Made by a program: the position numbers and the translations under genes | Virus record (IMG/VR): IMGVR_UViG_3300044701_002547 | Coordinates: 1-64,000 of that record | From: a virus | Strand: one strand, 5' to 3' | DNA length: 64,000 bases | Shown: in pieces, positions 21,001-44,124 of the stretch | Numbering within the stretch: position 1 is the first letter of the stretch | Layout: each line of letters starts with the position of its first letter | The notes under the pieces: generated by a model | Databases searched by the model: none | Told to the model about the DNA's origin: nothing | The model's input: the letters and a program-made list of their open reading frames with translations, nothing else

Positions 21001-23053
21001 TAATTTAACTACTGGTTCTATCTTCTCAGTTAATGATGTTTCTGGTATTCCAAGTATTGATGTAAATGCTGATGGAACAATTCAACTTGCACCTTATAGT
21101 GGAAATACTGGAGTTGGAACCACAAACCCAACACAAAAATTAGATGTATCTGGAAACCTAAGACTTCGTGGAGCTCTTTATGATTTTAATAATCAGGTAG
21201 GTGCTGCTGGTTCAGTTCTCGTCTCAACTGGTGCTGGAGTGAGTTGGTCTTCTGCTGGGGCAGGATCACAAGGAATCCAGGGTATTCAAGGAATTCAGGG
21301 TATCCAAGGAACTCAGGGTACTCAAGGAATTCAGGGCATTCAAGGTCGCCAGGGAATCCAAGGAACACAGGGTACTCAAGGCACTCAGGGAACTCAAGGA
21401 ATCCAGGGTATTCAGGGAACACAAGGTACTCAAGGTACTCAAGGAATCCAGGGTACTCAGGGAACTCAAGGAATCCAAGGAACTCAGGGTACTCAGGGAA
21501 CTCAAGGAATCCAAGGAATCCAGGGTATTCAAGGTCGTCAAGGAATCCAAGGAACTCAGGGAACTCAAGGAATCCAGGGTATTCAGGGAACACAAGGTAC
21601 TCAAGGTACTCAAGGAATCCAGGGTACTCAGGGAACTCAAGGAATCCAAGGAACTCAGGGTACTCAGGGAACTCAAGGAATCCAAGGAATCCAGGGTATT
21701 CAAGGTCGTCAAGGAATCCAAGGAACTCAGGGAACTCAAGGAATCCAGGGCATCCAAGGAACTCAGGGAACTCAAGGAATCCAGGGCATCCAAGGAACTC
21801 AGGGAACTCAGGGAATACAAGGTACTCAGGGAACTCAAGGTACTCAAGGTATTCAGGGCATCCAAGGAACACAAGGAACACAAGGAACACAAGGTACTCA
21901 AGGAATCCAGGGCATCCAAGGTATTCAGGGATCTAGTAATACATCATCTTGGAGTAAAAAGACAACAACTTATACTGCTGTAACTGGCGATCAACTGATT
22001 GCTGATACTTCTGGTGGTGCATTTACAATCACTCTTCCAGCATCACCAACAACAGGAAACTCTGTAAGAATTGCTGATGGTGCTGATTGGGAAACAAATA
22101 ATCTCACAATTGGTCGTAACAGTTCCACGATTGAAGGTGGAACAGAAGACTTTGTACTTGACATCAAAGGTATTACAGTTGATTTCATTTATGATGGAAC
22201 AACTTGGGAAGTTTATGCAAATGTTGGACCAAAAGGACAAACAGGAGCAGCCGCAGTATATAATACTGGAATTACAACATCCATTTATGTTTCAGTAACC
22301 TCAGGTATTGCGACTGGTATTGGCGGTGCTGGTATTTCAACAGCAGATTCTCAAAGAAATAGAAATAATGACATCTTTATTGGACCAGGAATTGCTTATT
22401 CATTCCCATCAACTGCTGGTAAAAAATATATCGTTGAGTCAATTCACTTCACAAACGTCTTTAGTAATGAACTTTATCTGTCCGCAAGACAAGACTTCTT
22501 TCAATCCTCAAATAACTGGTTGAACGTTCCAATGGCACAAAGAGTGATTGTTCCTTATCAAGGCGCAACAGAGTTATTATTCAATCAACCAATTATTGCC
22601 AATCCATCAGACATTCTTCGTTTCCAAGCACTTGCAGGAGTAGGAACAACTGCTGCTGGTGTTGATGGTGGATTAGATGCGTTTATTGTTTATTCGGAGA
22701 AATTTGATACAAACTATGTTGGTGTCGGTTCAACAGTTACGTCTTCAAGTGGAACTGAGATTTATACTTCAACAACTTATCCAACTACAGTTCAATCAGT
22801 TCGTATTATCAATTACAATTTGAATATTGATATTGATGCTTCAGTATCCATTTATCGTGGAGGAACTGTAGGAGGTATTGTAACCACGGGTGTTCGTCAA
22901 GGATACTTAGCATATAATATGACTATACCTAAAAATAGTGTGGTTGAAATACTTGATAAGGCAAAATACCTTGCGACAAACGATAGTATTGTTGCAGTTG
23001 CTTCTACAATTAATTCAATTGCCGTTTGTGTTTCTGGTAAAAAGATAGTATAA
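18092..23053 (+). CDS. Collagen-like tail fibre protein 2 (1653 aa)
   Basis: N-terminal GTGPNQVPLNCMLGNLAFQD; three GXQ blocks; VGIGTTNP repeats; DTSGGAFTITLPASPTTG domain. Confidence 0.9.
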   Translation: MANLYGTGPNQVPLNCMLGNLAFQDKAYVSVDKVGIGTTFVDSGTSGQILQVYGGGAFISGSVGIGTTNPSQLLDVNGNIRLRAGLYDINNQVGTATSVLTSTGAGVSWVPIATAALQGLQGIQGIQGRQGIQGTQGTQGIQGIQGTQGTQGIQGTQGTQGTQGIQGIQGTQGTQGTQGTQGTQGIQGIQGTQGTQGIQGTQGTQGTQGIQGIQGIQGTQGTQGTQGIQGTQGIQGIQGTRGTQGTQGTQGTQGIQGTQGTQGTQGIQGIQGTQGTQGTQGTQGIQGTQGTQGTQGTQGIQGTQGTQGIQGIQGTQGTQGTQGTQGTQGIQGIQGTQGTQGTQGTQGTQGIQGIQGTQGTQGIQGIQGTQGTQGTQGIQGIQGRQGIQGTQGTQGIQGTQGTQGTQGIQGIQGITGPVAGSANQVVYKDGSNNPTGSANLTFDGTTLQHGGPAGTGIGINSNTITGPSQITIDPAAIGNDTGAVRIKGDLYVDGTQFVVNSTTIELADAQVGIATTVGTNILLDGAGIGIGSIGIRKTITWNNTASALTSSEDWNVASGKQYEIAGTSVLSETTLGTGVTISNIRSANPGLIFDRSEVSPTSNDYLLYVTNDGTTLRKATIQNAALQGVQGIQGRQGIQGTQGSQGIQGIQGTQGTQGTQGIQGRQGIQGTQGTQGIQGTQGTQGTQGIQGTQGTQGTQGIQGTQGTQGTQGIQGIQGTQGTQGTQGTQGTQGIQGIQGTQGTQGTQGTQGTQGTQGTQGIQGIQGTQGTQGTQGIQGTQGTQGTQGIQGIQGIQGRQGIQGTQGTQGTQGTQGIQGIQGIQGTQGTQGIQGTQGTQGIQGIQGIQGRQGIQGTQGTQGTQGTQGIQGTQGTQGIQGIQGIQGIQGIQGANNGGFTVTNTTTNTTAYIGFVTVTSGVSTILGVGNTLLQFNPSTGALGIGTVIDIVPYDTLNSGTLSWEGSAGQLFSITNNLTTGSIFSVNDVSGIPSIDVNADGTIQLAPYSGNTGVGTTNPTQKLDVSGNLRLRGALYDFNNQVGAAGSVLVSTGAGVSWSSAGAGSQGIQGIQGIQGIQGTQGTQGIQGIQGRQGIQGTQGTQGTQGTQGIQGIQGTQGTQGTQGIQGTQGTQGIQGTQGTQGTQGIQGIQGIQGRQGIQGTQGTQGIQGIQGTQGTQGTQGIQGTQGTQGIQGTQGTQGTQGIQGIQGIQGRQGIQGTQGTQGIQGIQGTQGTQGIQGIQGTQGTQGIQGTQGTQGTQGIQGIQGTQGTQGTQGTQGIQGIQGIQGSSNTSSWSKKTTTYTAVTGDQLIADTSGGAFTITLPASPTTGNSVRIADGADWETNNLTIGRNSSTIEGGTEDFVLDIKGITVDFIYDGTTWEVYANVGPKGQTGAAAVYNTGITTSIYVSVTSGIATGIGGAGISTADSQRNRNNDIFIGPGIAYSFPSTAGKKYIVESIHFTNVFSNELYLSARQDFFQSSNNWLNVPMAQRVIVPYQGATELLFNQPIIANPSDILRFQALAGVGTTAAGVDGGLDAFIVYSEKFDTNYVGVGSTVTSSSGTEIYTSTTYPTTVQSVRIINYNLNIDIDASVSIYRGGTVGGIVTTGVRQGYLAYNMTIPKNSVVEILDKAKYLATNDSIVAVASTINSIAVCVSGKKIV
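18446..19327 (+). repeat. Collagen-like GXQ block, 98 triplets
   Basis: 882 nt; contains one GTR variant. Confidence 0.95.
19973..20755 (+). repeat. Collagen-like GXQ block, 87 triplets
   Basis: 783 nt. Confidence 0.95.
21263..21928 (+). repeat. Collagen-like GXQ block, 74 triplets
   Basis: 666 nt; contains a long internal near-exact duplication. Confidence 0.95.
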
Positions 23054-23076: not shown

Positions 23077-23736
23077 ATGTCTGTATTGATTGCAATGCCT
23101 TGTTATGGTGGAATGGTAAGTGATAAAACTGCTAAAGGTCTATTCAATCTTGGAAAAGAATTGAGAACTGCAGGAGTAGATCACGGACTTTTGACGATGG
23201 CAAATGAAAGTCTTGTAACGAAAGCAAGGTCCAGAATTGCAAACTTTTTTATGAATAACACAGAGTATGAGTATATTCTGTTTATTGATGCTGATGTTGG
23301 ATTTACACCTGAAGATGTCTTCAGGTTATTTGAGAGTCGCAAAGATATTGTATGTGGTGCATATCCAATGAAAGGAATTCCACTTCGCTATAATTATAAT
23401 ATCTCACAACCAGAAGTCAAAGAAGGAGACTTAGTAAAAATTGAAAATATTGGATTTGGTTTTGCTTTGATTCATCGCAAAGTGTTTGAGAGTATTTCTC
23501 ATAAATATGGTGAAGAGTTGAAATATTATCCCGCAACGAATAATAGTTCTTATCCACCAACGGAAAAAGAGTTTCATAATTCCTATCACTACTTTCTGGA
23601 ACTGAAAAAAGATATGAGTTACTTACCAGAAGATTTTTCTTTTTTTGAAAGGGCAAAGAGTGTAGGTTATGAAACTTGGTTGAATACTTCTATAAAATTA
23701 GCACACGTCGGTTCTCACGTTTATCAAGAAGAGTAA
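23077..23736 (+). CDS. GT-A fold glycosyltransferase
   Basis: IAMPCYGG...ILFIDAD (DxD)...GFGFALIHRKVF...LPEDFSF...LAHVG. Confidence 0.85.
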   Translation: MSVLIAMPCYGGMVSDKTAKGLFNLGKELRTAGVDHGLLTMANESLVTKARSRIANFFMNNTEYEYILFIDADVGFTPEDVFRLFESRKDIVCGAYPMKGIPLRYNYNISQPEVKEGDLVKIENIGFGFALIHRKVFESISHKYGEELKYYPATNNSSYPPTEKEFHNSYHYFLELKKDMSYLPEDFSFFERAKSVGYETWLNTSIKLAHVGSHVYQEE

Positions 23737-23739
23737 GAA

Positions 23740-25602
23740 ATGACACAAGGAGTTTTTGGTCTCAAAAAGGTTTATAAGAAACAGTATGAGAATGTAACGA
23801 ACAAAAACTTCGCAAGTTGGCCCGAGAGTGCGACTTATGGATACTTTGGTGGTGGTATTATTGCATCTCCACCACCATCATCTAATTTTTGGATAAGCAC
23901 CATCAGTCGTCTTGATTTTTCTAATGAAACCGTTAGTAATCCAGGAAAGAACTTACCTTCAATAAGATCTGGTTTAGCAGCAGTCTTAAGTAGTTTTTAT
24001 GGTTACTTTGGTGGTGGTTCTACTCCTACTCTCATAAGCACCATCAGTCGTCTTGATTTCTCTAATGAAATCGTCAGTGATCCAGGAAATAATTTACCTT
24101 CAGGAAGAAGTAATTTAGCAGCGATCTCAAGTAGTTCTTATGGTTACTTTGGTGGTGGTGGTATAAACACAATAACCCGTCTTGATTTTTCAAATGAAAC
24201 CGTCAGTGATCCTGGTAAGAACTTACCAAGTACAAGAAGTGGATTAGCAGCAGTCTTAAGTAGTTCTTATGGTTATTTTGGTGGAGGTACTAATCCTACT
24301 CCTGCTCTTATAAACACCATCAGTCGTCTTGATTTCTCAAATGAAACCGTTAGTGATCTAGGAAACAATTTACCTTCATCAATAAGTGAGTTAGCAGGAA
24401 CCTCAAGTAGTTCTTATGGTTACTTTGGTGGAGGTAGTAATCCTGGATCCACGAACAATATCAGTCGTCTTGATTTCTCTAATGAAACCAATAGTCTTCC
24501 AGGAAACAATTTACCTTCAGCAAGACCTAGATTAACAGCAACCTCAAGTAGTTCTTATGGTTACTTTGGTGGCGGTGGTATTCCTCCTACTAGTGGTCTA
24601 GTAAGCACCATCAGTCGTCTTGATTTCTCTAACGAAACCAATAGTCTTCCAGGAAACAATTTACCTTCAGCAAGATATAGTTTAGCAGCAGTCTCAAATA
24701 CCGCAAAGTTTCCCAGAGTGGGCAATAAGACTTATGGGTATTTTGGTGGTGGAAGATTAGGTATTGTTGGTGGAACATATGTTTCTACTATCAATAAACT
24801 TGATTTTTCTACAGAGTCTTCAACTGATATTCCCGAAAGATTACCCACAGATTTAAGTTTTGTTGCAGTTGTAAGTGATTCAAATAATGCATATTTTGGT
24901 GGTGGATTTACTGGTGCTGTGATTATTTCTAATATAACACGGTTTAGTTTTTCTAATGATACTGACTCGTCTATTTCAAATTTACCTGCAGCAAGAAGTG
25001 CTTTAGCAGCAGTCTCAAGTAGTTCTTATGGTTATTTTTGTGGGGGTGCTTCTCCTTCCCCTCCTATTGTAAATACCATTACTCGTCTTGATTTTTCCAG
25101 TGAAACCGTCAGTAATCCAGGAAACAATTTACCTTCATCAAGATCAGAATTAACTGCAACTGAAAGTAGTACTTATGGTTATATTGTTGGTGGGGATCCT
25201 GGAAATCAAACTACAATAAGTAGATTAGACTTTTCTACAGAAGTAAATAGTCTTCCTACAAATAATTTGATAGGAGGAAGAGCAAGATTTAGTTCGGTTT
25301 CAAATGGTCTATACGGGTATTTTGGTGGTGGTGATTCTCCTCCAGGTGCTATAGTTAATACCATACAAAGACTTGACTTTACAACAGAAGTTACAAGTAA
25401 TCCTCCAGCAAATTTACCGAGTGTTAGACGATCTACATCATCTGCTTCAGGTACTTCTTATGGATATTTTGCTGGAGGTTTTACTCCACCCTTTAGAGAT
25501 ATTATTACTCGTTTTGATTTTTCAAATGAAGTTTGTAGCAATCCTCCTGTGGTATTACCTTTTGATAGATCTGCTATGGGTGGAACTGCAAACTCAAACT
25601 AA
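23740..25602 (+). CDS. Kelch-like double beta-propeller protein K1 (12 blades)
   Basis: 12 x YGYFGGG-loop-I(S/T)RLDFSNET...LPSxR; ends ANSN. Confidence 0.88.
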   Translation: MTQGVFGLKKVYKKQYENVTNKNFASWPESATYGYFGGGIIASPPPSSNFWISTISRLDFSNETVSNPGKNLPSIRSGLAAVLSSFYGYFGGGSTPTLISTISRLDFSNEIVSDPGNNLPSGRSNLAAISSSSYGYFGGGGINTITRLDFSNETVSDPGKNLPSTRSGLAAVLSSSYGYFGGGTNPTPALINTISRLDFSNETVSDLGNNLPSSISELAGTSSSSYGYFGGGSNPGSTNNISRLDFSNETNSLPGNNLPSARPRLTATSSSSYGYFGGGGIPPTSGLVSTISRLDFSNETNSLPGNNLPSARYSLAAVSNTAKFPRVGNKTYGYFGGGRLGIVGGTYVSTINKLDFSTESSTDIPERLPTDLSFVAVVSDSNNAYFGGGFTGAVIISNITRFSFSNDTDSSISNLPAARSALAAVSSSSYGYFCGGASPSPPIVNTITRLDFSSETVSNPGNNLPSSRSELTATESSTYGYIVGGDPGNQTTISRLDFSTEVNSLPTNNLIGGRARFSSVSNGLYGYFGGGDSPPGAIVNTIQRLDFTTEVTSNPPANLPSVRRSTSSASGTSYGYFAGGFTPPFRDIITRFDFSNEVCSNPPVVLPFDRSAMGGTANSN

Positions 25603-25626
25603 ATAAGACATCTACATTATTCTTAT

Positions 25627-27204
25627 ATGAAATCTGGAGCAACTGAAAGTTCTTTTTATTATCTCAATCAATATTATACAATTCCAAATAATGTTGAAAT
25701 CTCAAGAAGTATAGAAGAATTAGCACAATCAAAGAAGCAATATAAAATTCTGTGGGCCCACGATAACTGCGATCAACCACAACTCTTAAGACTTCCAGAG
25801 TTAGTATCGCAGATTGATCGTATTGTTTGTGTCTCTAACTGGGAAAGAGAGCAATACATCAAGTATAACCGAGCACCAGCAGAAAAAATCACAGTCATCC
25901 CAAATGGTGTGGATGAGATGTTCCGTCCATCAGGAAAACCAAAATCAAAGACCTGTATCTTCTTTTCTGCTCCTCATAAGGGTATCACACCATTAGTACC
26001 CATCTGGAAAGAAGTCATCAAACATCATCCAGATGCAAAACTCAAGGTGTTTTCTTCAATGTCTCTTTATGGTGCAATTCAACCAGGAGAAGGAGAAAAT
26101 GAGACCATCACAACTGAGAATGGACTAGAGCCTTCACCATTCATTTCCATCTACAAGGAACTCCAGGCACTTCCAGGTGTGGAGTATTCACCTTGTATTG
26201 ACCGTGAAGATTTACTACCTCATATTCAGGATGCTGCATTTTATATTCACCCAAATGTATGGGAAGAAACCTTCTGTGTCTCATTAGCGGAGGCAATGAG
26301 TTGTGGTTGCTTCCCTATCACAACCGATATGGGAGCACTTCCAGAGACATCATTTGGAAGAGGGAAGTATATTCCGATGTCGGGGCAGAATACTCCAAGA
26401 GGTTGGTTGCCTGATGATACATTTCACCAAAACTTTGCGAAAGAAATTATTCAGGCACTTTCATTTTTTGATAAAGAACCAGAGACTTTTTATGCTGCGA
26501 CAAATGACCTAGCATCTCTAGCAATTCATCATTACAACTGGAAAACAATCGCTAGAGATTGGAGTGAATTGATTGAGGTTGTTACAAAACGAGCAGTTTA
26601 TATTGATGATGAATATATCTTCAACGAAGTTTATCATAAGAATGAATATGGTATTGAAACCTTTGCTCCTGATGATATTGTAATTGATATTGGAGCACAT
26701 AAAGGATACTTCACGAAGTTGTGTATGGATATGGGATGTAAGAACATTCATTCCTTTGAACCAGAACCAAATAACTTTGAGTCACTCATTCACAATCTCA
26801 AGGACTATAAACACTTTCAACCTTATAATCTAGCAGTCTCTGATAAGAAGGGGCAAAAAAATCTTACGGTCGTGAAAGGATGTAACACAGGTCTTCATTC
26901 ATTTTATCAACCAAGAGGTATTCCAGTCACAGTTTCAACCATAGGGTTGGATGATATACTCGCACATTTTTCTAAAGTATCTCTAATCAAGATTGATACT
27001 GAAGGTTCAGAGTTTGAAATTCTTTTCAATTCAAAGTTACTTAGCAAAGTCAATAAAATCGTTGGTGAATATCACAACAATATTACCTCACATAATCTTG
27101 AAGACTTGAAAAAATATCTGGAAGAAAAAAACTTTGAAGTTAGTATTACAAGAAAGTTCAATGAGAATAGCGGCATTTTTGTTGCGATAAATAATAAAAA
27201 ATGA
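25627..27204 (+). CDS. GT-B (GT4-like) glycosyltransferase fused to FkbM-family methyltransferase
   Basis: VIPNGVD...EETFCVSLAEAMSCG (E-x7-E); C-terminal VIDIGAHKG...FEPEP...IKIDTEGSEFEIL. Confidence 0.9.
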   Translation: MKSGATESSFYYLNQYYTIPNNVEISRSIEELAQSKKQYKILWAHDNCDQPQLLRLPELVSQIDRIVCVSNWEREQYIKYNRAPAEKITVIPNGVDEMFRPSGKPKSKTCIFFSAPHKGITPLVPIWKEVIKHHPDAKLKVFSSMSLYGAIQPGEGENETITTENGLEPSPFISIYKELQALPGVEYSPCIDREDLLPHIQDAAFYIHPNVWEETFCVSLAEAMSCGCFPITTDMGALPETSFGRGKYIPMSGQNTPRGWLPDDTFHQNFAKEIIQALSFFDKEPETFYAATNDLASLAIHHYNWKTIARDWSELIEVVTKRAVYIDDEYIFNEVYHKNEYGIETFAPDDIVIDIGAHKGYFTKLCMDMGCKNIHSFEPEPNNFESLIHNLKDYKHFQPYNLAVSDKKGQKNLTVVKGCNTGLHSFYQPRGIPVTVSTIGLDDILAHFSKVSLIKIDTEGSEFEILFNSKLLSKVNKIVGEYHNNITSHNLEDLKKYLEEKNFEVSITRKFNENSGIFVAINNKK

Positions 27205-28061
27205 AACTGAAGAATACTATGTCTAATAACTATGAAGCAATTGCTCTTGCGACTTCTAAGGAAGTTCTAGATGACAGTAATGAGTTTATGCTGAAAGTTC
27301 TCAACGAAGCAAATCGTTGGACTGAAAGTGAAACAGAACTCGCACAAGGACGCTCTGATTTTCAGATTGAAAAGTTTATCATTCACGATAACTTTACACT
27401 TCCTTCCGCATTCAAGGCAGCAATTATCAATCGTAGAAGCGTAGCAGAAGGACTACTCCAACAAATCATTGAAGCAAAAAGAGCAGCAAGAGAGTTTTAT
27501 TATAAGTGGGAAGGAAAGGATAAGACTCAACCAATCTGGTGGAAAAATCGTCAAGGTGGTGAAGAACTCACTTGGTATGATATTGATGAATTTCATTTTC
27601 ACAGAATGCTTGAAGGACTCAATCGTGGTTTCAAGTCTTCAGTAGAAGAACTTGAATGCTTTGATAAACTTATCAATCGTCTTGTTGAATTGAATGGTGG
27701 TCAGTTAGTTTCTCGTGACCAATATAATGCAGACCAACCAAACTACTGGGAACGCAGACTTGCAAATCAATCTCTTGATGACCTACTTGCTGCAAAGACT
27801 GGCGTAAATGCTGGTAATATTCGTTCTATGAGACGCGCAAGTGCCCCTACGGTTCTTCCTGATGATGTGAATAGAACCAAAGGAACTTTTGGAGATCCTA
27901 ACAATCCTCTTGATTTCCTGAACGCACTTCAGCAAAATGTTGCTGCTGGTATTGAAGAGATTACTGGTATGGATAAAGCACTTCTTTCGGGTATTGAAGA
28001 GAAAGAAGAAGCAAAACAAATCACAAGTTCGTTATTCAATCAAGACCTCAAACTAGAGTAA
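27201..28061 (+). CDS. Hypothetical helical/coiled-coil protein
   Basis: 286-aa ORF, GRSDFQIEKF...YWERRLANQ; start may be the ATG at 27219. Confidence 0.75.
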   Translation: MKLKNTMSNNYEAIALATSKEVLDDSNEFMLKVLNEANRWTESETELAQGRSDFQIEKFIIHDNFTLPSAFKAAIINRRSVAEGLLQQIIEAKRAAREFYYKWEGKDKTQPIWWKNRQGGEELTWYDIDEFHFHRMLEGLNRGFKSSVEELECFDKLINRLVELNGGQLVSRDQYNADQPNYWERRLANQSLDDLLAAKTGVNAGNIRSMRRASAPTVLPDDVNRTKGTFGDPNNPLDFLNALQQNVAAGIEEITGMDKALLSGIEEKEEAKQITSSLFNQDLKLE

Positions 28062-28062
28062 A

Positions 28063-29931
28063 ATGCCAAAGTTCGTAGGGGATGTTTTTGGACTGAATAA
28101 TGTTTATGATAAACAGATTCTCAATGTAGAACAGAAGAACTTTGCGAACTGGAGCGAGAGTGCGACTTATGGATACTTTGGAGGAGGTGGTACTCCTACT
28201 ATCACAGCCCTCATCAGTCGTCTTGATTTTTCTAATGAAACCAACAGTCTCCCAGGAAACAATTTACCTTCAGTAAGACTTGATTTGGCAGCAACCTCAA
28301 GTAGTTCTTATGGTTACTTTGGTGGTGGTGCTCCAACTCCTACTTCACAAATGAGCACTATCAGTCGTCTTGATTTCTCCAATGAAACCGTCAGTAATCC
28401 CGGTAATAACTTATCTCCAGCAAGAAGAAATTCAGCAGCAATCTCAAGTGGTTCTTATGGTTACTTTGGTGGTGGTTATTCTTTTCCCGCTACTTTTATA
28501 TGCACCATCACTCGTCTTGATTTCTCTAATGAAACAGTTAGTGATCCGGGAAAAAATTTACCTACAGTAAGAAGAGATTTATCAGCAACCTCAGATAATT
28601 CTTATGGATACTTTGCTGGTGGTGCTGTTCCTCCTGGTCCTACTTTTATATGCACCATCACTCGTCTTGATTTTTCCAATGAAACCGTCAGTAATCCTGG
28701 TAAGAACTTACCAACAATAAGATATATTTTAGCGGCGACTTCAAGTAATTCTTATGGTTACTTTGGTGGTGGTGCCATTGGTGCTGCTGGTCCTATTATA
28801 AACACCATCAGTCGTCTTGATTATTCTAATGAAACTGTCAGTAATCCTGGTAAGAACTTACCTGCAACAAGAGCATCATTAGCAGCAACCTCAAGTAGTT
28901 CTTTCGGTTACTTTGGTGGTGGTCTTACTCCTGCTATTATAAACACCATCAGTCGTCTTGATTTCTCTAATGAAACCAATAGTCTTCCAGGAAACAATTT
29001 ACCTTCAACAAGAGAATCTTTATCAGCAGTCTCAGGAGGTCAATCAGTTCTCAGAGGCAATAAGACTTATGGTTACTTTGGTGGTGGTTTTGGTCTTTCC
29101 ACCATAGACCGTTTAGATTTCTCTACAGAAACCGTCACAACTCCAACACCTAAGTTATCTCAAGCAAAAGTTGATCCAGGAACAACTTCAAGTAGTTTTT
29201 ATGGTTACTTTGGTGGTGGAGAACTTCCTACTCCTGCTCCTGTAAGCACCATTGATCGTCTTGATTTCTCTAATGAAACAGTCACAACTCCAAGTCCAAA
29301 GTTATCAATCGCAAGAGAAGCAAGTGCTGGAGTTTCAAATAGTTCTTATGGTTACTTTGGTGCTGGTAATTTTAGTTCTCTTATAGATCGTTTAGATTTT
29401 ACTACAGAAATCACAACAGTCGTAACACAAAGACTATCTCAATTGGGTGGTAGGTCAGCATCAGTCTCAAGTAGTTTTTATGGGTACTTTGGTGGGGGTA
29501 GTAATTCTGGTAATGCTACTGTTACCACCATAGAACGTTTAGATTTTTCTAATGAAATTATATCAACTCCAAGTTCTAAGTTATCTATAGACAGACGTGC
29601 TCTAACAGCAACTTCTAGTAGTTCTTTCGGGTACTTTGGTGGTGGTTATGCTCTTCCTACTGTTCCTACTAGAATTAATCGTTCTACTATAGATCGTTTA
29701 GATTTCTCCACAGAAACTGTATCAACTCCAAGTCCTAAGTTATCCCAATCAAAGTCATTTTTAGCGGCAACCTCAAGTAGTTCTTTCGGATACTTTGGTG
29801 GTGGTAATACTCCTACTGCTTCTGTTTCCACCAGAGATCGTTTAGATTTTTCTACAGAAACAGTATCAACTCCAAGTCCTAAATTATCTACAGCAAAATT
29901 ACAGTTATCAGCACTCTCAAACTCAAACTAA
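28063..29931 (+). CDS. Kelch-like double beta-propeller protein K2 (12 blades)
   Basis: 12 repeats as in K1; ends SNSN. Confidence 0.88.
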   Translation: MPKFVGDVFGLNNVYDKQILNVEQKNFANWSESATYGYFGGGGTPTITALISRLDFSNETNSLPGNNLPSVRLDLAATSSSSYGYFGGGAPTPTSQMSTISRLDFSNETVSNPGNNLSPARRNSAAISSGSYGYFGGGYSFPATFICTITRLDFSNETVSDPGKNLPTVRRDLSATSDNSYGYFAGGAVPPGPTFICTITRLDFSNETVSNPGKNLPTIRYILAATSSNSYGYFGGGAIGAAGPIINTISRLDYSNETVSNPGKNLPATRASLAATSSSSFGYFGGGLTPAIINTISRLDFSNETNSLPGNNLPSTRESLSAVSGGQSVLRGNKTYGYFGGGFGLSTIDRLDFSTETVTTPTPKLSQAKVDPGTTSSSFYGYFGGGELPTPAPVSTIDRLDFSNETVTTPSPKLSIAREASAGVSNSSYGYFGAGNFSSLIDRLDFTTEITTVVTQRLSQLGGRSASVSSSFYGYFGGGSNSGNATVTTIERLDFSNEIISTPSSKLSIDRRALTATSSSSFGYFGGGYALPTVPTRINRSTIDRLDFSTETVSTPSPKLSQSKSFLAATSSSSFGYFGGGNTPTASVSTRDRLDFSTETVSTPSPKLSTAKLQLSALSNSN

Positions 29932-29935
29932 TATT

Positions 29936-30766
29936 ATGAAAACCTTTTACTTTATGTCTGGACTTCCACGTTCAGGTTCCACACTCTTGACGGCACTACT
30001 CAATCAAAATTCAGAGATACACGCATCCACAAACTCTCCACTTCTGGATACGATACACTATACACAAGAATACCTTTTACATAACTCAGAACAATATAAG
30101 GCAACTCCAAATCCACAAGGAGCACATAAGGTTTTATCGTCCATACCTCATAACTATTATTTCAATACTCCACAGAATATTATTATTGATAAGTCAAGAG
30201 GTTGGGTCAATCAAATCCAACACATTACAGATTACATTACAAAAGATCCAAAGATTATTTGTCCCGTAAGGTCTATTCAGGATATTCTTTCATCGTTTCT
30301 TTTACTCATTCATAAAACTTCAAGAGTTTCTTTTATTGATGAAGCACTTCTTAGAAACAATCTTGAAATCACAAATGATAATCGTTGTGATTACCTAATG
30401 TCTCCTCAAGGTATTATCGGACAATCTTATCACGCACTTCAACAAGCATTCTCTAAAGGATATAGAAACAATATTCTGTTAGTGGAATATGATGACCTTA
30501 CAAGAAATCCACAACAAGAACTCAATCGTATCTATGAGTTTCTGGAATTACCTTCTTATTCTCATAGTTTTGGGAATGTCATTCCGAAGTGTGATGAGAA
30601 CGATGAGGTTTATAAGTTAGACAATATGCATACGGTAAGAAATAAGGTAGAGAAGATACATCGTGATAACTCAAAGTATCTTAGTGACTATGTTATGAAT
30701 AAATACAATCATATGGAGTTCTGGCGGCAAACAAGAACTTCTCAGTATTCTGTGTTCGGTTTATAA
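29936..30766 (+). CDS. Sulfotransferase
   Basis: GLPRSGSTLL 5'-PSB PAPS-binding loop; DKSRGW; CPVRS; YDDLTRNPQQELNRIYEFL. Confidence 0.92.
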   Translation: MKTFYFMSGLPRSGSTLLTALLNQNSEIHASTNSPLLDTIHYTQEYLLHNSEQYKATPNPQGAHKVLSSIPHNYYFNTPQNIIIDKSRGWVNQIQHITDYITKDPKIICPVRSIQDILSSFLLLIHKTSRVSFIDEALLRNNLEITNDNRCDYLMSPQGIIGQSYHALQQAFSKGYRNNILLVEYDDLTRNPQQELNRIYEFLELPSYSHSFGNVIPKCDENDEVYKLDNMHTVRNKVEKIHRDNSKYLSDYVMNKYNHMEFWRQTRTSQYSVFGL

Positions 30767-32608
30767 ATGCCTACCTTTTCACTTCAGGACGCAAGAACAG
30801 AACAAGTCAAAAATGTAGCATACGGAAACTTTGCATATTGGCCTGAGAGTGCGACTTATGGGTATTATGGTGGTGGGTTTGCTCCTCCTTTTATAAGCAC
30901 CATCAGTCGTCTTGATTTCTCTAATGAAACCGTCAGTGATCCAGGAAACAATTTACCTTCAGTAAGACATCAATTAGCAGCAACCTCAAGTAGTTCTTAT
31001 GGTTACTTTGGTGGTGGTGATACTACTCCTGGTGCTATAAACACCATCAGTCGTCTTGATTTCTCTAATGAAACCGTCAGTAATCCAGGAAATAATTTAC
31101 CTTCACCAAGAATTAATTTCGCAGCAACCTCAAGTAGTTCTTATGGATACTTTGGTGGGGGTTATACTCCAGGTGCTCCAGGTACTCTTCTATGTACTAT
31201 CAGTCGTCTTGATTTCTCTAATGAAACCGTCAGTGATCCAGGAAAGAATTTACCTACAGCAAGAGCAGAATTGACAGCAACTTCAAGTAGTTCTTATGGT
31301 TACTTTGGTGGTGGGTTTGCTCCTCCTGTTATAAGCACCATCAGTCGTCTTGATTTCTCTAATGAAACCGTCAGTGATCCAGGAAACAATTTACCTACAG
31401 CAAGAAGATTTTCATCAGCAACCTCAAGTAGTTCTTATGGATACTTTGGTGGGGGTTATATTCCAGGTCCTCCAGGTATTTTTCTATGTACTATCAGTCG
31501 TCTAGATTTCTCTAATGAAACTGTAAGTAATCCAGGAAAAAATTTACCTTCAGCAAGAGCAGAATTGCCAGCAACTTCAAGTAGTTCTTATGGTTATTTT
31601 GGTGGTGGTTTTAATGGTGCTTACTTAAACACCATCAGTCGTCTTGATTTCTCTAATGAAACCGTCAGTAATTCAGGAAACAATTTACCTACAGCAAGAA
31701 GATATTTATCAGCAGTCTCAAATACCGCAAAGTTTCCCAGAGTGGGTAATAAGACTTATGGTTACTTTGGTGGTGGTGTTACTGTTTCCACCATTGACCT
31801 TCTTGATTTCTCTACAGAAACAGTAACAAGACTAACACCTAAGTTATCTAGAGCAAGAAGTTCTTTAGCAGCAACCTCAAGTAGTTCTTATGGTTACTTT
31901 GGTGGTGGTTATTCTTTTCTCGATACTGCTGATTTTTCTACTATCGACCGTCTAGATTTTTCCAATGAAACCGTCACAGTTCCAACACCTAAGTTATCTC
32001 AAGCAAGAAGTTCTTTAGCAGCAACCTCAAGTAGTTCTTATGGTTACTTTGTTGGTGGTTATGGTTCTTTTACCTATGTTTGCACCATTGACCGTCTAGA
32101 TTTCTCCACAGAAACCGTAACAACACCAGGACCTAAATTATCTCAAGCAAGAGGTGCTTTAGCAGCAGTCTCAAATAGTTCTTATGGTTATTTTGGTGGT
32201 GGTGCTTTTCTTCCCGCTTATGTTTGTACCATTGACCGTCTAGATTTTTCCACAGAAACCGTCACAGTCCCAACACCTAAGTTATCTCAAGCAAGAACTA
32301 CTTCAGCAACCTCAAGTAGTTCTTATGGTTACTTTGGTGGTGGTAATACTGGTATTGCTATTTCCACCATAGACCGTTTAGATTTTTCTACCGAAACCGT
32401 AACAGTACCAACACCTAAGTTATCTCAGGCAAGAGATGCTTTAGCAGCAACCTCAAGTAGTTCTTATGGTTACTTTGGTGGTGGTTTTGCTCCTCCTTCT
32501 GTTTGTACCATTGACCGTCTAGATTTCTCCACAGAAACCGTAACAACATCAATACCTCAATTACCTCAATCAAGAAGTTTTTTAGCAGCAACCTCAAACT
32601 CAAACTAA
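30767..32608 (+). CDS. Kelch-like double beta-propeller protein K3 (12 blades)
   Basis: 12 repeats; ends SNSN. Confidence 0.88.
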   Translation: MPTFSLQDARTEQVKNVAYGNFAYWPESATYGYYGGGFAPPFISTISRLDFSNETVSDPGNNLPSVRHQLAATSSSSYGYFGGGDTTPGAINTISRLDFSNETVSNPGNNLPSPRINFAATSSSSYGYFGGGYTPGAPGTLLCTISRLDFSNETVSDPGKNLPTARAELTATSSSSYGYFGGGFAPPVISTISRLDFSNETVSDPGNNLPTARRFSSATSSSSYGYFGGGYIPGPPGIFLCTISRLDFSNETVSNPGKNLPSARAELPATSSSSYGYFGGGFNGAYLNTISRLDFSNETVSNSGNNLPTARRYLSAVSNTAKFPRVGNKTYGYFGGGVTVSTIDLLDFSTETVTRLTPKLSRARSSLAATSSSSYGYFGGGYSFLDTADFSTIDRLDFSNETVTVPTPKLSQARSSLAATSSSSYGYFVGGYGSFTYVCTIDRLDFSTETVTTPGPKLSQARGALAAVSNSSYGYFGGGAFLPAYVCTIDRLDFSTETVTVPTPKLSQARTTSATSSSSYGYFGGGNTGIAISTIDRLDFSTETVTVPTPKLSQARDALAATSSSSYGYFGGGFAPPSVCTIDRLDFSTETVTTSIPQLPQSRSFLAATSNSN

Positions 32609-32632
32609 ATAAGATACTTACATCATTTTGAT

Positions 32633-33295
32633 ATGAATGATTTACTTTCTAATGTTCTAATTCAACCAAAGGTTCTTACACCAGAGGCAATTGAGTTTCT
32701 TATTCATCACGCAAAGAATTCTCATCAGGAACAGATGGGAGTTTTTGACCCAGACAAAGCAAATCAAACTGGAGAAGATCATCCGGGAAAAATTGATTTA
32801 AAATCAAGAAATGTAAAGGCAGCAGATATTGAAACTATCATTCCTCAAATCAAAGAACTCTATGATAATATAGTTCATCACGTAATCAATCCTTTTTATG
32901 GATTCAAAATCAAAGATAGTGAAATGCCGCAACTATTGGTCTATAATCCAGGAGGACACTACCAGGCACACTATGATGCCGTAGCAAAATGGAAGTGTCC
33001 TGATGGAAATATCATCTGGAAGAAGTCTATAGACCGTGATGTATCTACAGTTCTTTTTCTCAACGATGACTTTGAGGGTGGAAACTTTGTATTCCCAGAT
33101 CTCCGAGTAACCATTCGTCCAGAACCAGGACTTCTAGTTGCCTTTCCATCTTCTCAGTTCTTTGCTCATAAAGTAGAACCAGTCATCTCAGGAACTCGTT
33201 ATACGATGGTCAATTGGATGACCGTTCAAGGATTTAAGACGAAAGCAGAGCAAGACAAAGAATTACAAGATAAATATGGAGTAAAGGTATCTTAG
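32633..33295 (+). CDS. 2OG-Fe(II) oxygenase, prolyl-4-hydroxylase-like
   Basis: YNPGGHYQAHYD (HxD)...FLNDDFEGG...FPS...HKVEPVISGTRY. Confidence 0.92.
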   Translation: MNDLLSNVLIQPKVLTPEAIEFLIHHAKNSHQEQMGVFDPDKANQTGEDHPGKIDLKSRNVKAADIETIIPQIKELYDNIVHHVINPFYGFKIKDSEMPQLLVYNPGGHYQAHYDAVAKWKCPDGNIIWKKSIDRDVSTVLFLNDDFEGGNFVFPDLRVTIRPEPGLLVAFPSSQFFAHKVEPVISGTRYTMVNWMTVQGFKTKAEQDKELQDKYGVKVS

Positions 33296-33870
33296 TTGGT
33301 AAGTAAGGTATAGCACTTATCATTTCGGTCATAAGCATAGTCAGCATACTGACCATTTTTTCTAACAAAGTGTAGGAACAACTGCATAAAGCGGTCATTC
33401 TCGTGAGTTCTCAAAGGACTTCTCCAGTGAGGTACAATCGTTCCAAGATAAGCAAGACCATCTCCAACTGGTGTGACGACTTCTCTTCTTTTACCAGTCA
33501 GGTCTTTGAGTTTGATAGGCCACGCAGCATCACCACAAATATTCATCGTGACTGAAATTTCACAAGATGGGCGGTCAGTATGACAGTTCATCCATCCACC
33601 TTTATGATAAGTTGTAGAGAACCAATAAGATGGGATGAGTTCTTCTCCAAGTAGTTCTTCTAGAATTGGTTGAACTCTTTTCATTACAAAAGCACAAGAA
33701 GGTGGAGCATAACAAGTCAATACTCTACCTCTCTCTGGATCCCAGTGTCCTTCAAGAGAACCTAAGTCACTCATCGCACCACAGAGATTTTGATACTTGA
33801 TACTAATTGCTTCTTCTGGTGTAATAATTTTAGGAAGATAATACCAACCTTTTCTTACAAACTCACTCAT
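33292..33870 (-). CDS. 2OG-Fe(II) oxygenase-like protein
   Basis: HTDRPSCEISVT (HxD)...GDGLAYLG...HWR...QLFLHFV. Confidence 0.85.
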   Translation of the reverse strand: MSEFVRKGWYYLPKIITPEEAISIKYQNLCGAMSDLGSLEGHWDPERGRVLTCYAPPSCAFVMKRVQPILEELLGEELIPSYWFSTTYHKGGWMNCHTDRPSCEISVTMNICGDAAWPIKLKDLTGKRREVVTPVGDGLAYLGTIVPHWRSPLRTHENDRFMQLFLHFVRKNGQYADYAYDRNDKCYTLLTN

Positions 33871-34830: not shown

Positions 34831-34831
34831 A

Positions 34832-35719: not shown

Positions 35720-35723
35720 AAAA

Positions 35724-41288: not shown

Positions 41289-41297
41289 GGTATTGAA

Positions 41298-44123: not shown

Positions 44124-44124
44124 A

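What the first reader, a model, noticed from the sequence alone, without database searches (positions are those of the whole stretch)
23077..33870. Propeller-plus-enzyme cassette array: candidate phage protein-decoration system
Seen: gene order GT-A, K1, GT-B/FkbM methyltransferase, helical protein, K2, sulfotransferase, K3, prolyl-hydroxylase-like oxygenase, second oxygenase. Every propeller gene is immediately followed by a different modifying enzyme. All three end in identical AAACTCAAACTAA (..NSN*). After K1 and K3 the similarity continues through a late promoter to the next start codon (ctaaataagacatctacattattcttatATGAA versus ctaaataagatacttacatcattttgatATGAA). The variable blade loops are Pro/Thr-rich (SPPPSS, TNPTPA, VPPGPT, FAPP, PGAPG, PGPPG), whereas the neighbouring collagens contain no Pro. 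Knowledge: proline hydroxylation followed by glycosylation is used on plant extensins and Dictyostelium Skp1. Inference: a late-expressed pathway that hydroxylates, glycosylates, methylates and sulfates displayed propeller loops or fibre Thr. Alternatively, the propellers are substrate adaptors for their downstream enzymes. I know of no description of such a system in phages.
Basis: partly seen in the sequence, partly recalled or inferred. Interest (0 to 1): 0.85.

Follow-up and report, generated by a model that had tools for sequence, protein, structure and literature searches.

The report
Phage Kelch-propeller fibre module with tailoring enzymes
An uncultured relative of the Synechococcus phage S-SKS1 carries, just behind a giant collagen-like fibre gene, three fast-evolving double-propeller proteins interleaved with slowly evolving hydroxylase-, sugar-, methyl- and sulfate-transferring enzymes; this set recurs in many uncultured phages and probably builds and decorates the phage's host-binding appendages, though no chemistry has been shown.

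Summary
Window 23077-33870 encodes GT-A, K1, GT-B/FkbM, a helical protein, K2, a sulfotransferase, K3, a prolyl-hydroxylase-type 2OG oxygenase and, on the minus strand, a conserved protein that I could not confirm as an oxygenase.

K1-K3 each consist of an N-terminal helix plus two six-bladed Kelch propellers. Variation is concentrated in the Pro-rich B-C loop and the end of the D-A loop, which is the usual Kelch ligand-binding face.

In 28 related viral contigs that span the module I found 10 gene orders, always with exactly three K genes. The helical protein, the P4H-like gene and the minus-strand gene are constant. GT-A and GT-B/FkbM are present or absent together, and the sulfotransferase varies independently. 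So the K-enzyme alternation is conserved only loosely, and no propeller is tied to one enzyme.

The K genes evolve fastest (median 54% identity to the window's copies, against 76-82% for four of the six companion genes). Relatives carry a tail-fibre assembly chaperone right after the P4H-like gene.

Best reading: the K proteins are variable binding units of the fibre apparatus, and the enzymes tailor the phage's own fibre proteins. Modification of the host surface remains a real rival.

This scan has noted the same module on other DNA several times.

The parts
18092..23053 (+). col2: 1653-aa collagen-like fibre protein with (G-T/I-Q)n runs; it heads the tightly packed gene string
   Evidence: Pfam Collagen E 7e-121. 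Triplet composition: X = T or I, Y = Q. A sigma-70-like site lies at 18051-18078, just upstream. A col2 homologue precedes the K module in relatives.
23077..23736 (+). GT-A-type glycosyltransferase (219 aa), an accessory part present or absent together with GT-B/FkbM
   Evidence: Pfam GT2 at 19.6 bits, below the cut-off. phrog_1574 and phrog_34859. Invariant D71-x-D73. Profile match to STIV A197 (2c0n), E 9.9e-6. Co-occurrence with GT-B/FkbM.
23740..25602 (+). K1: N-terminal helix plus two six-bladed Kelch propellers (620 aa)
   Evidence: Pfam PF24681 at 86.4 bits. Alignment of the three paralogues. Fold inferred from the K3 model.
25599..25626 (+). Conserved K 3' junction element CTAAATAAG..TACAT.ATT, 21 nt before the next ATG; a candidate promoter-like site
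25627..27204 (+). GT-B (GT4-type) glycosyltransferase fused to an FkbM methyltransferase (525 aa)
   Evidence: Pfam PF05050, PF13439 and PF00534, all above cut-off. TIGR01444.
27201..28061 (+). Conserved helical protein (286 aa; conservation begins at Met7); always lies directly upstream of a K gene; function unknown
   Evidence: 29 orthologues are 65-89% identical to it. AF2 pLDDT is 66.6, showing a long helical hairpin with a beta-hairpin tip. No significant fold match. Position relative to K.
28063..29931 (+). K2: double Kelch propeller (622 aa)
29936..30766 (+). PAPS-type sulfotransferase (276 aa); acceptor unknown; an accessory part
   Evidence: Pfam PF13469 and PF00685. Invariant 5'-PSB loop PRSGST and a conserved Arg/Ser pair in the expected 3'-PB region. 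Profile matches to TPST1/2 and the CurM sulfotransferase.
30767..32608 (+). K3: double Kelch propeller (613 aa); this is the modelled paralogue
   Evidence: AF2 pLDDT 90.7. Foldseek target-normalised TM about 0.9 to Keap1, KLHL and designed Kelch domains. Entropy map of the repeats.
32605..32632 (+). Second copy of the conserved K 3' junction element
32633..33295 (+). Prolyl-hydroxylase-type 2OG-Fe(II) oxygenase (220 aa); a core part that always follows the last K
   Evidence: Pfam PF13640 at 59.6 bits. Invariant H113-x-D115, H179 and R189. PDB matches to P3H1, Bacillus anthracis P4H and PKHD/PiuC-type hydroxylases. Single copy in complete relatives.
33292..33870 (-). Conserved 192-aa protein ('Oxy2'), convergent with the P4H-like gene; identity as an oxygenase is unconfirmed
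   Evidence: phrog_2954 E 6e-54. Invariant H97-x-D99 and H148. No Pfam or PDB hit, and hhalign against the P4H-like profile gives 0.8% probability. Nearest Pfam-bearing Atlas clusters are longer PF13640 proteins.
33949..36104 (+). Context: two short collagen-like/Gly-rich fibre proteins and a tail-fibre assembly chaperone
37780..45543 (+). Context: a further glycan-enzyme island (GT17, methyltransferases, a 941-aa MT-TPR-FkbM-GT2 protein, GT25-DUF6445)
   Evidence: Relatives carry GT17-FkbM, GT25-FkbM and FkbM-DUF6445 fusions.

Best explanation
This is a conserved fibre and host-recognition module of S-SKS1-like cyanophages.

K1-K3 are strings of six-bladed Kelch propellers. Their scaffold is constant, and the loops on the usual Kelch ligand-binding face are hypervariable. 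They most likely serve as binding (adhesin or receptor-binding) units attached to, or working with, the collagen-like fibres, probably through their shared N-terminal helix.

The interleaved genes are tailoring enzymes, apparently co-transcribed with them. The core set is the 2OG oxygenases and the unknown helical protein. The accessory set is a glycan-building pair (GT-A with GT-B/FkbM, which would make a methylated sugar unit) and a sulfotransferase. These most likely act in the cytoplasm on the phage's own fibre proteins (the K proteins and/or the Thr-rich collagen-like fibres) before assembly.

Shown: the anatomy, the fold, the pattern of variation, the conservation and the enzyme families. 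Inferred: that the K proteins are in the virion, that they bind the host, and what the enzymes act on.
For: Fold and variation:
- Each K is two six-bladed Kelch propellers.
- Entropy peaks in the B-C loop and in the two residues after the conserved Arg of the D-A loop. In Keap1-type Kelch domains these loops form the ligand face (combined with established knowledge).
- K is the fastest-evolving part: median 54% identity to the window's copies, against 81% (helical), 82% (GT-A), 82% (Oxy2) and 76% (sulfotransferase); P4H-like (66%) and GT-B/FkbM (65%) lie in between.
- K lengths come in propeller-sized steps: about 620, 930 and 1240 aa.

Structural context:
- A collagen-like fibre gene lies directly upstream, and further fibre genes and a tail-fibre chaperone lie downstream.
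- In relatives a Phage_tail_APC chaperone directly follows the P4H-like gene.
- Gene gaps are 0-24 nt and no terminator excess is seen.

Conservation:
- 68 IMG/VR loci carry the module, always with three K genes.
- At least 858 protein clusters in metagenomes are homologous to K.
- The divergent contig L076 keeps K, GT-B, sulfotransferase, P4H-like and GT25 genes together.

Precedents:
- A Kelch protein (CBB_552) was identified by mass spectrometry in virions of phage CBB (PMC5259590).
- Some lower-ranked structural matches in BFVD are annotated as virion structural proteins of phiKZ-like phages.
- A five-bladed propeller platform holds the receptor-binding sites in siphophage receptor-binding proteins (PMC12917162).

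Evidence bearing on a protein rather than a lipid-linked glycan target:
- No phosphoglycosyl transferase or Wzx flippase was found in five related records, two of them complete.
- The P4H-like gene is single-copy and sits next to K.
- Its nearest solved relatives include protein prolyl hydroxylases.
- The GT-A profile's only clear PDB match is a viral glycosyltransferase, STIV A197.
- GT-methyltransferase fusions recall chlorovirus A064R, which builds a capsid glycan (from memory, not checked here).
- Iyer et al. 2010 predicted that 2OG oxygenases plus sulfotransferases modify co-encoded collagen-like or tail-fibre-like proteins (PMC2938197).
Against: - There is no proteomic or chemical evidence that the K proteins are in virions or that any phage protein is modified.
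- All but one of the supporting loci belong to one phage lineage with general synteny, so repeated co-occurrence is not independent evidence of coupling.
- GT-A, GT-B/FkbM and the sulfotransferase are dispensable. Three contigs lack all three and three more lack the two glycosyltransferases, yet all keep three K genes.
- Some relatives encode nucleotide-sugar epimerases or dehydratases, as polysaccharide pathways do.
- The sulfotransferase's similarity to TPST is confined to the PAPS-binding core, and the TPST catalytic Glu is not aligned.
- The published view of fibre-plus-glycosyltransferase islands is that they modify the host O-chain (PMC7029224).
Confidence: 0.45

Rival explanations
1. 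Host-surface remodelling. The K proteins are fibre or receptor-binding parts, but the glycosyl-, methyl- and sulfotransferases (and perhaps the oxygenases) act on host envelope glycans during infection. This could block superinfection or stop progeny adsorbing to lysed cells. They would sit among the fibre genes only because this is the phage's hypervariable 'host recognition cluster'.
For: - Zaragoza-Solas et al. 2020 describe a host recognition cluster in pelagimyophages and cyanomyophages. It is a hypervariable island of tail fibres plus many glycosyltransferases, which they read as O-chain modification (PMC7029224).
- The glycosyl, methyl and sulfo genes here are accessory and change position.
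- Some relatives carry nucleotide-sugar enzymes.
- GT25 and GT4 families are common in lipopolysaccharide synthesis.
Against: - No lipid-carrier initiating transferase or flippase was found in two complete relatives, although host enzymes could serve.
- The enzymes appear co-transcribed with fibre genes, which are usually late. That leaves little time to remodel a surface.
- The core oxygenases and the enzyme-K interleaving are not explained by this reading.
Confidence: 0.25
2. The semi-conserved prolines at the start of each variable blade loop are hydroxylated by the P4H-like enzyme. The hydroxyproline (or nearby Thr/Ser) is then glycosylated, the sugar methylated and sulfated. The propeller faces would then display a modified, extensin- or Skp1-like surface.
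For: - The loops are enriched in Pro at fixed positions 3-4, in a [T/A/S]-P-[P/T] pattern.
- The P4H-like gene always follows the last K and is single-copy.
- The catalytic triad is intact.
- Its nearest solved relatives include prolyl 3- and 4-hydroxylases.
Against: - Apart from the Pro, the loops are the most variable part of the protein, which is unusual for an enzyme recognition site.
- Glycosyltransferase- and sulfotransferase-free relatives have similar or higher loop Pro content.
- The K-like propeller of L075 has Pro in 4 of 6 loops with no P4H-like gene within the fetched 8-kb flanks.
- Pro at the start of a B-C loop may simply be structural.
Confidence: 0.12
3. The propellers act as adaptors. 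As Kelch domains do in BTB-Kelch ligases, each K would bind a target (a host or phage protein or glycan) and present it to the neighbouring enzyme. On this reading the K proteins are not virion parts.
For: - Kelch domains are classical protein-binding modules with a variable top face.
- Enzyme genes flank every K in the window.
Against: - No K-enzyme fusions appeared among the near-length homologues listed, and no pairing is fixed. Gene orders permute and K-K adjacency occurs.
- Neighbour labels do not define K clades.
- The setting is structural: fibre genes and a chaperone surround the module.
Confidence: 0.06
4. The enzymes act on something other than protein or envelope glycan, such as phage DNA hypermodification or a small secondary metabolite. 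Their linkage to K would then be incidental.
For: - Phage glycosyltransferases often glycosylate DNA.
- Iyer et al. 2010 suggested that cyanophage dioxygenase arrays serve metabolite synthesis (PMC2938197).
Against: - The oxygenase is of the PF13640 type, not Tet/JBP.
- FkbM and sulfotransferase activities have no known role on DNA (from knowledge, not tested here).
- The genes are embedded in the fibre gene string.
Confidence: 0.05

Closest known systems
Kelch six-bladed beta-propellers (Keap1, KLHL12/17/20; Pfam PF24681/PF13415) and Kelch proteins of jumbo phages (vB_PcaM_CBB CBB_552, PhiPA3 gp360, PS119XW)
   Same: - The repeat is about 47 aa with a GG doublet and a conserved Arg.
- The fold is six blades of four strands, with target-normalised TM about 0.9 to Keap1.
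- Double-Kelch proteins exist in jumbo phages, and one Kelch protein is a proven virion component (PMC5259590).
   Different: - Here there are always three paralogues, each with 2-4 propellers in a row and a private conserved N-terminal helix.
- The blade scaffold is extremely uniform, with hypervariable Pro-rich loops.
- The genes are interleaved with modifying enzymes.
- Sequence identity to any solved Kelch domain is only 15-22%.
Predicted bacterial 'hydroxylate then sulfate' operons (Iyer, Abhiman, de Souza, Aravind 2010, PMC2938197)
   Same: 2OG-Fe(II) oxygenases are co-encoded with sulfotransferases and methyltransferases, next to collagen-like Gly-rich proteins or phage tail-fibre-like proteins that are proposed as the substrates.
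   Different: - Those are bacterial operons, often with a PAPS synthetase. None was found here.
- They have no Kelch propellers and no glycosyltransferases.
- Like this module, they remain untested predictions.
Host recognition cluster of pelagimyophages and cyanomyophages (Zaragoza-Solas et al. 2020, PMC7029224)
   Same: It is a hypervariable island within the structural genes that mixes tail fibres, collagen-repeat and lectin-like proteins with glycosyltransferases.
   Different: - It was described for T4-like myophages, between VrlC and gp14.
- The authors interpret it as host O-chain modification.
- No Kelch triplet, constant oxygenase set or sulfotransferase is described.
Mycobacteriophage virion glycosylation (Freeman et al. 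2023, Cell Host Microbe; seen here only as a citation in PMC12619734 and PMC12801897)
   Same: Phage-encoded glycosyltransferases glycosylate the phage's own virion proteins in the cytoplasm.
   Different: - The acceptors there are the C-termini of capsid and tail-tube subunits, and the enzyme set is glycosyltransferases only.
- Here the targets are unknown, and hydroxylase, methyltransferase and sulfotransferase are added.
- I did not read the paper itself.
Chlorovirus PBCV-1 A064R and Mimivirus collagen/fibril modification enzymes
   Same: - Viruses encode GT-GT-methyltransferase fusions that build methylated glycans on structural proteins.
- Mimivirus hydroxylates and glycosylates its collagen-like proteins.
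   Different: - Those are eukaryotic giant viruses.
- The collagen here has no Pro or Lys in its triplets, so classical collagen hydroxylation cannot apply to it.

Membership tests
Kelch-repeat six-bladed beta-propeller | Pfam Kelch models matched above the curated cut-off | tested here: met
   PF24681 scores 86.4, 67.4 and 94.6 bits for K1, K2 and K3 against a cut-off of 50. PF13415 scores 71.3 bits for K3.
Kelch-repeat six-bladed beta-propeller | Repeat of 44-56 aa with four strands, a GG doublet after strand B and a conserved Arg before strand A | tested here: met
   12 repeats per protein of the YGYFGGG...R..LAAT type. DSSP on the model shows four strands per repeat.
Kelch-repeat six-bladed beta-propeller | Closed six-bladed fold superposable on solved Kelch domains | tested here: met
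   AF2 pLDDT 90.7. Foldseek gives target-normalised TM 0.90-0.94 and rmsd 1.7-1.9 A to Keap1 and the designed SAKe6 proteins, for each half of K3.
Prolyl-hydroxylase-type 2OG-Fe(II) oxygenase (PF13640) | HxD...H iron triad and a basic 2OG-binding residue; Pfam above cut-off | tested here: met
   59.6 bits against a cut-off of 27. H113, D115, H179 and R189 are invariant in 36 orthologues.
Prolyl-hydroxylase-type 2OG-Fe(II) oxygenase (PF13640) | Peptidyl-proline as substrate | not testable with these tools
   Only homology is available: P3H1, Bacillus anthracis P4H and PKHD/PiuC hydroxylases, E 2e-6 to 2e-4.
2OG-Fe(II) oxygenase (the gene at 33292-33870) | Detectable homology to a DSBH oxygenase family | tested here: inconclusive
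   - No Pfam or PDB match.
- hhalign against the P4H-like profile gives 0.8% probability.
- An invariant HxD...H-like motif is present.
- PHROG and Atlas neighbours suggest fusion to PF13640 domains in other phages.
PAPS-dependent sulfotransferase (PF13469/PF00685) | 5'-PSB loop and 3'-PB motif; Pfam above cut-off | tested here: met
   59.4 and 56.3 bits. The PRSGST loop is invariant and R112/S120 are conserved.
Protein tyrosine sulfotransferase (TPST) | Catalytic Glu after the PSB loop, and Tyr-peptide acceptor specificity | tested here: inconclusive
   The profile aligns to TPST1 over residues 4-207 at E 4e-8. The TPST 'GEET' Glu aligns to Ser/Thr/Asn, and the similarity lies mostly in the PAPS-binding core.
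GT-A fold glycosyltransferase | Family profile match and a DxD motif | tested here: inconclusive
   - Pfam GT2 scores 19.6 bits, below the 23.3 cut-off.
- D71-x-D73 is invariant.
- The profile matches STIV A197 (2c0n) at E 9.9e-6.
GT4 glycosyltransferase + FkbM methyltransferase fusion | Both domains matched above cut-off in one polypeptide | tested here: met
   PF13439 36.5 bits, PF00534 35 bits, PF05050 62.8 bits and TIGR01444 89.4 bits.
Phage virion glycosylation system (mycobacteriophage type) | Glycans demonstrated on virion proteins and dependent on phage glycosyltransferases | not testable with these tools
   This needs virion mass spectrometry or glycoprotein staining.
'Hydroxylate then sulfate' neighbourhood (Iyer et al. 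2010) | 2OG oxygenase plus sulfotransferase co-encoded with a collagen-like or tail-fibre-like protein | tested here: met
   The P4H-like gene, the sulfotransferase, col2 and G1/G2 lie within 18 kb on one strand. The paper was read.
'Hydroxylate then sulfate' neighbourhood (Iyer et al. 2010) | PAPS synthetase in the neighbourhood (present in several, not all, of the published operons) | tested here: not met
   No APS kinase was found in five related records, two of them complete.
Host recognition cluster (Zaragoza-Solas et al. 2020) | Hypervariable island of fibre genes plus glycosyltransferases, located between VrlC and gp14 of a T4-like genome | tested here: inconclusive
   The content matches. 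The flanking markers VrlC and gp14, and T4-like status, were not examined for this record.

The most novel reading that the evidence does not exclude
A bacteriophage runs an extracellular-matrix-like, multi-step protein modification pathway on its own host-binding appendages. The steps would be prolyl (or other residue) hydroxylation, O-glycosylation with methylated sugars, and sulfation. The targets would be the hypervariable faces of 36 Kelch blades and/or the Thr-rich collagen-like fibres. Host specificity would then be set jointly by the loop sequence and by a swappable enzyme set.
Probability: 0.13. Interest if true: 0.85.

Novelty: new variant of a known kind. Interest (0 to 1): 0.6.

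Why it matters
If the enzymes do tailor the fibre proteins, this would extend phage self-glycosylation, so far shown in mycobacteriophages, to abundant marine and freshwater cyanophages. It would also add hydroxylation, sugar methylation and sulfation to the repertoire.

It could give a function to at least one of the many unexplained 2OG-Fe(II) oxygenases of cyanophages.

The always-three Kelch paralogues, with a constant scaffold and free-varying loops, look like a natural binder library for host recognition. That bears on host range in Synechococcus phages.

The module is directly testable because Synechococcus phage S-SKS1, an isolated phage, carries it (host recorded as Synechococcus sp. 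WH7803).

Tried and rejected
- **Complex prediction:** helical protein plus full-length K2, both given as alignments, returned 'no answer' (score 0.00, controls not run). This is no evidence either way.
- **Fold of the helical protein:** confidence was middling (pLDDT 66.6). VIA-align gave at best Z 6.3 to generic helical hairpins (SMC hinge, prefoldin). Foldseek on BFVD found only the S-SKS1 orthologue. No family could be assigned. The Atlas search also gave nothing usable.
- **Oxy2 as an oxygenase:** not confirmable by Pfam, PDB or hhalign.
- **Glycosyltransferases versus fibre Thr content:** I tried to relate GT presence to the Thr content of collagen triplets or to loop composition across relatives. 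Most fetched fibre fragments had no triplet runs, and loop Pro content did not track GT presence, so nothing can be concluded.
- **K clades by neighbour:** neighbour labels are only weakly clustered, needing 37 (upstream) and 43 (downstream) changes. Paralogues of one contig often group together, which suggests concerted evolution. I therefore dropped the idea of co-moving K-plus-downstream-enzyme cassettes.
- **NxT sequon idea for the conserved FSNET turn:** dropped, because whole lineages have STET there instead.
- **Literature:** the searches for S-SKS1 and for Kelch, phage and tail-fibre terms surfaced no description of this module. The CTAAATA search gave no useful paper.

Full report
**Source.** The window is the first 64 kb of a 105,675-bp IMG/VR viral record that CheckV estimates to be 49% complete. 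Its only relative among isolated phages is Synechococcus phage S-SKS1 (Llyrvirus; host recorded as WH7803). S-SKS1 carries the same genes, but its annotated K ORFs are short fragments at the end of the linear record.

**Observation.**

| Coordinates | Gene |
|---|---|
| 23077-23736 | GT-A |
| 23740-25602 | K1 |
| 25627-27204 | GT4-type GT-B fused to FkbM methyltransferase |
| 27201-28061 | helical protein |
| 28063-29931 | K2 |
| 29936-30766 | sulfotransferase |
| 30767-32608 | K3 |
| 32633-33295 | PF13640 2OG oxygenase |
| 33292-33870, minus strand | conserved 192-aa protein ('Oxy2') |

- Gene gaps are 0-24 nt, and the string follows the 1653-aa collagen-like gene col2 after 23 nt.
- The three K genes share the 3' end AAACTCAAACTAA, and the spacers after K1 and K3 are alike.
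- The collagen-like proteins are (G-T/I-Q)n with no Pro in the triplets.

**What the K proteins are.**
- The paralogues are 56-67% identical in the protein alignments.
- Each has a conserved N-terminal segment (VFGL..VY..Q..NV.N.NF.SWPES) followed by 12 repeats of about 47 aa.
- AF2 on a 65-sequence alignment gave pLDDT 90.7. The model shows a poorly packed N-terminal helix (pLDDT 54-64) and two six-bladed propellers at about 31-330 and 331-613.
- Foldseek places each half on Keap1, KLHL and designed SAKe6 Kelch domains, with target-normalised TM about 0.9 and rmsd 1.7-1.9 A. A profile search of PDB sequences agrees.
- Among viral models, the nearest are S-SKS1 and double-Kelch proteins of the jumbo phages PhiPA3 and PS119XW.
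- Per-column entropy shows a nearly fixed scaffold. Variation sits in the loop after YGYFGGG (B-C loop, mostly 5-10 aa) and in the two residues after the conserved Arg at the end of the D-A loop.
- In Keap1-type Kelch domains these two loop sets form the ligand-binding face. This is established knowledge; I could not measure it on coordinates.
- The B-C loops are Pro-rich (18.7% against 5.9% overall), with Pro favoured at positions 3-4.

**Conservation.**
- A scan of IMG/VR gave 173 confirmed stretches, kept as 68 loci. The protein database holds at least 858 homologous clusters at E <= 1e-5, none with an informative name.
- I annotated the loci by BLAST against the window's proteins. Of these, 28 span from the fibre gene to the P4H-like gene, and they show 10 gene orders.
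- Constant features: exactly three K genes; the helical gene directly before a K; the P4H-like gene after the last K; and then the minus-strand gene.
- Variable features:
  - GT-A and GT-B/FkbM are present together or absent together.
  - The sulfotransferase comes and goes independently and can sit after the first or second K, or elsewhere.
  - K-K adjacency occurs.
  - Extra GT17-FkbM or FkbM genes can be inserted.
- In relatives, the 193-aa gene between fibre and GT-A is a PF13759 2OG oxygenase. The 181-242-aa gene after the P4H-like gene carries a tail-fibre assembly chaperone domain. The window lacks both at these positions but has such a chaperone at 35724-36104.
- K lengths fall at about 620, 930 and 1220-1246 aa among complete ORFs, that is 2, 3 or 4 propellers.
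- Median identity to the window's proteins:

| Protein | Median identity |
|---|---|
| K | 54% |
| GT-B/FkbM | 65% |
| P4H-like | 66% |
| sulfotransferase | 76% |
| helical | 81% |
| GT-A | 82% |
| Oxy2 | 82% |

- A tree of the first 330 residues of 92 K proteins shows that paralogues from one contig often group together (for example L017, L035, L031). Neighbour labels are only weakly clustered, and slightly better for the upstream gene than the downstream one. So there is concerted evolution among paralogues, and no stable pairing of a propeller with 'its' enzyme.

**Outside the lineage.**
- A scan of one genome per prokaryote species found three loci.
- L076 is a 6.7-kb contig binned with a Paceibacterota MAG. 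It is far more divergent (K 39%, sulfotransferase 37%, P4H-like 43% identity) yet keeps K, GT-B, sulfotransferase, P4H-like and GT25 genes together. This is the one partly independent sign of functional linkage.
- L075 has a single K-like propeller behind an unrelated N-terminal domain, among ParA, integrase and Cap4-nuclease genes. None of the enzymes lies within 8 kb. Its loops still carry Pro in 4 of 6 blades.

**The enzymes.**
- *P4H-like gene.* The iron triad and the basic residue are invariant. The nearest solved relatives are prolyl 3- and 4-hydroxylases and PKHD/PiuC hydroxylases. It is the only PF13640 gene in two complete relatives.
- *Sulfotransferase.* It has the PAPS-binding motifs. 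Its profile aligns best to a polyketide-synthase (CurM-type) sulfotransferase and to TPST1/2, but only through the cofactor core, and the TPST catalytic Glu is not aligned. The acceptor stays unknown.
- *GT-A.* It has an invariant DxD. Its only clear PDB match is the STIV A197 glycosyltransferase.
- *GT-methyltransferase fusions.* FkbM domains fused to GT4, GT17 and GT25 domains, here and in relatives, point to methylated sugars.
- *Pathway genes looked for.* No phosphoglycosyl transferase, Wzx flippase or APS kinase was found in five related records, two of them complete. Some relatives have nucleotide-sugar epimerases or dehydratases.
- *Oxy2.* It could not be confirmed as an oxygenase. PHROG and Atlas neighbours hint that similar domains are fused to PF13640 domains in other phages.
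- *Helical protein.* It is highly conserved but has no recognisable fold.

**The junction element.**
- CTAAATA(A) lies 21 nt before the ATG after K1 and after K3.
- It is kept at K-to-P4H, K-to-GT-B and K-to-K junctions across relatives, even where the K stop codon lies upstream of it.
- In the whole record, 7 of its 12 copies lie within 45 nt upstream of a start codon on the same strand, against 2.8% of all positions and 5.4% for same-composition words.
- This fits a promoter-like element. Calling it 'late' rests only on its likeness to T4-type late promoters (TATAAATA), which I recall from memory. No sigma-70-type site lies there.

**Interpretation.**
- The anatomy fits variable binding modules of the fibre apparatus:
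  - Scaffold and binding face: the scaffold is fixed and the canonical binding face is hypervariable.
  - Rate and length: K evolves fastest in the module, and its length changes in propeller-sized steps.
  - Attachment: all K paralogues share a docking-like N-terminus.
  - Position: the genes sit between the fibre genes and a fibre chaperone.
- Precedents exist. One Kelch protein is a proven virion part of phage CBB (PMC5259590). Propeller platforms carry receptor-binding sites in siphophage receptor-binding proteins (PMC12917162).
- The target of the enzymes is the open question. I favour the phage's own fibre proteins for these reasons:
  - Genomic setting: the enzymes are embedded in the fibre gene string, and no lipid-carrier machinery was found.
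  - The P4H-like enzyme: it is single-copy, bound in position to K, and among its nearest solved relatives are protein hydroxylases.
  - Published prediction: Iyer et al. 2010 predicted that oxygenase-plus-sulfotransferase sets modify co-encoded collagen-like or tail-fibre-like proteins (PMC2938197).
- The main rival is the published reading of fibre-plus-glycosyltransferase islands as host O-chain modification (PMC7029224). It fits the accessory, mobile behaviour of the glycosyl and sulfo genes.
Only the Pro is semi-conserved, and Pro persists in a K-like protein with no P4H-like gene within the fetched flanks.

**Earlier notes of this scan.** The same module has been noted, and followed up, on other genomes with similar verdicts. 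Those notes led me to the two papers above, which I then read myself. One note claims that the loop Pro occurs only where P4H-like genes sit beside the propellers. My single counter-example, L075, does not support that claim, but it is too thin to refute it.

**Verdict.** The feature is real, well conserved and widespread. In kind it combines known things: Kelch virion proteins, fibre islands with glycosyltransferases, and predicted hydroxylate/sulfate tailoring of fibre-like proteins. The combination is undescribed and experimentally untested. The isolated phage S-SKS1 offers a direct test.

Noticed in passing
window 25599-25605, 32605-32611, 49113, 51707, 55235(-), 57621; whole record G000: CTAAATA is strongly positioned. 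7 of its 12 copies in the 105.7-kb record lie within 45 nt upstream of a start codon on the same strand (background 2.8%), the best of 105 same-composition words. It is a candidate phage promoter element.
   Followed up: partly
window 13734-15071, 15076-16413, 16415-17713: Three paralogous proteins of about 440 aa (33-37% identical) directly follow the first giant collagen-like gene, col1. One has a weak CBM_4_9 hit. This mirrors the three K genes that follow col2, so each fibre gene is followed by a triplet of candidate binding proteins.
   Followed up: partly
window 33949-34830, 34832-35719, 35724-36104: Two short proteins with an N-terminal (G-T/I-Q)n run and a Gly/Ala-rich C-terminal part are followed by a Phage_tail_APC chaperone. 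They are probably further small fibres.
   Followed up: partly
window 41298-44123 and 44125-45543: A 941-aa protein combines a class I methyltransferase, TPR, FkbM methyltransferase and GT2 domains. A 472-aa protein combines GT25 with DUF6445. The GT25 family includes collagen galactosyltransferases (from memory). Together they extend the glycan-enzyme island.
   Followed up: no
L001 (S-SKS1 HQ633071, 196907-208007): In the isolate's record the K genes are annotated as short fragments (169-466 aa) and lie at the very end of the linear record. This suggests assembly or frameshift problems in this repetitive region.
   Followed up: no
L075:7524-8858 (MAG contig JBFWVC010000016.1): A single K-like six-blade propeller follows an unrelated 147-aa N-terminal domain in a bacterial MAG contig. 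It lies next to ParA, an integrase-like gene and a Cap4-type nuclease. This looks like a mobile-element or prophage setting without the tailoring enzymes.
   Followed up: partly
window 33292-33870(-) and 32633-33295(+): Both proteins hit phrog_3531, which is labelled 'ferrochelatase'. Oxy2 matches profile positions 59-187 and the P4H-like protein matches positions 259-361. In some phages the two domains may therefore be one fused protein, and the PHROG label looks doubtful.
   Followed up: partly
L015:2129-8434: The 2101-aa homologue of col2 in some relatives has no Gly-X-Y runs and no Pfam Collagen match. The collagen-like segments are therefore a variable insert in an otherwise conserved fibre protein.
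   Followed up: no
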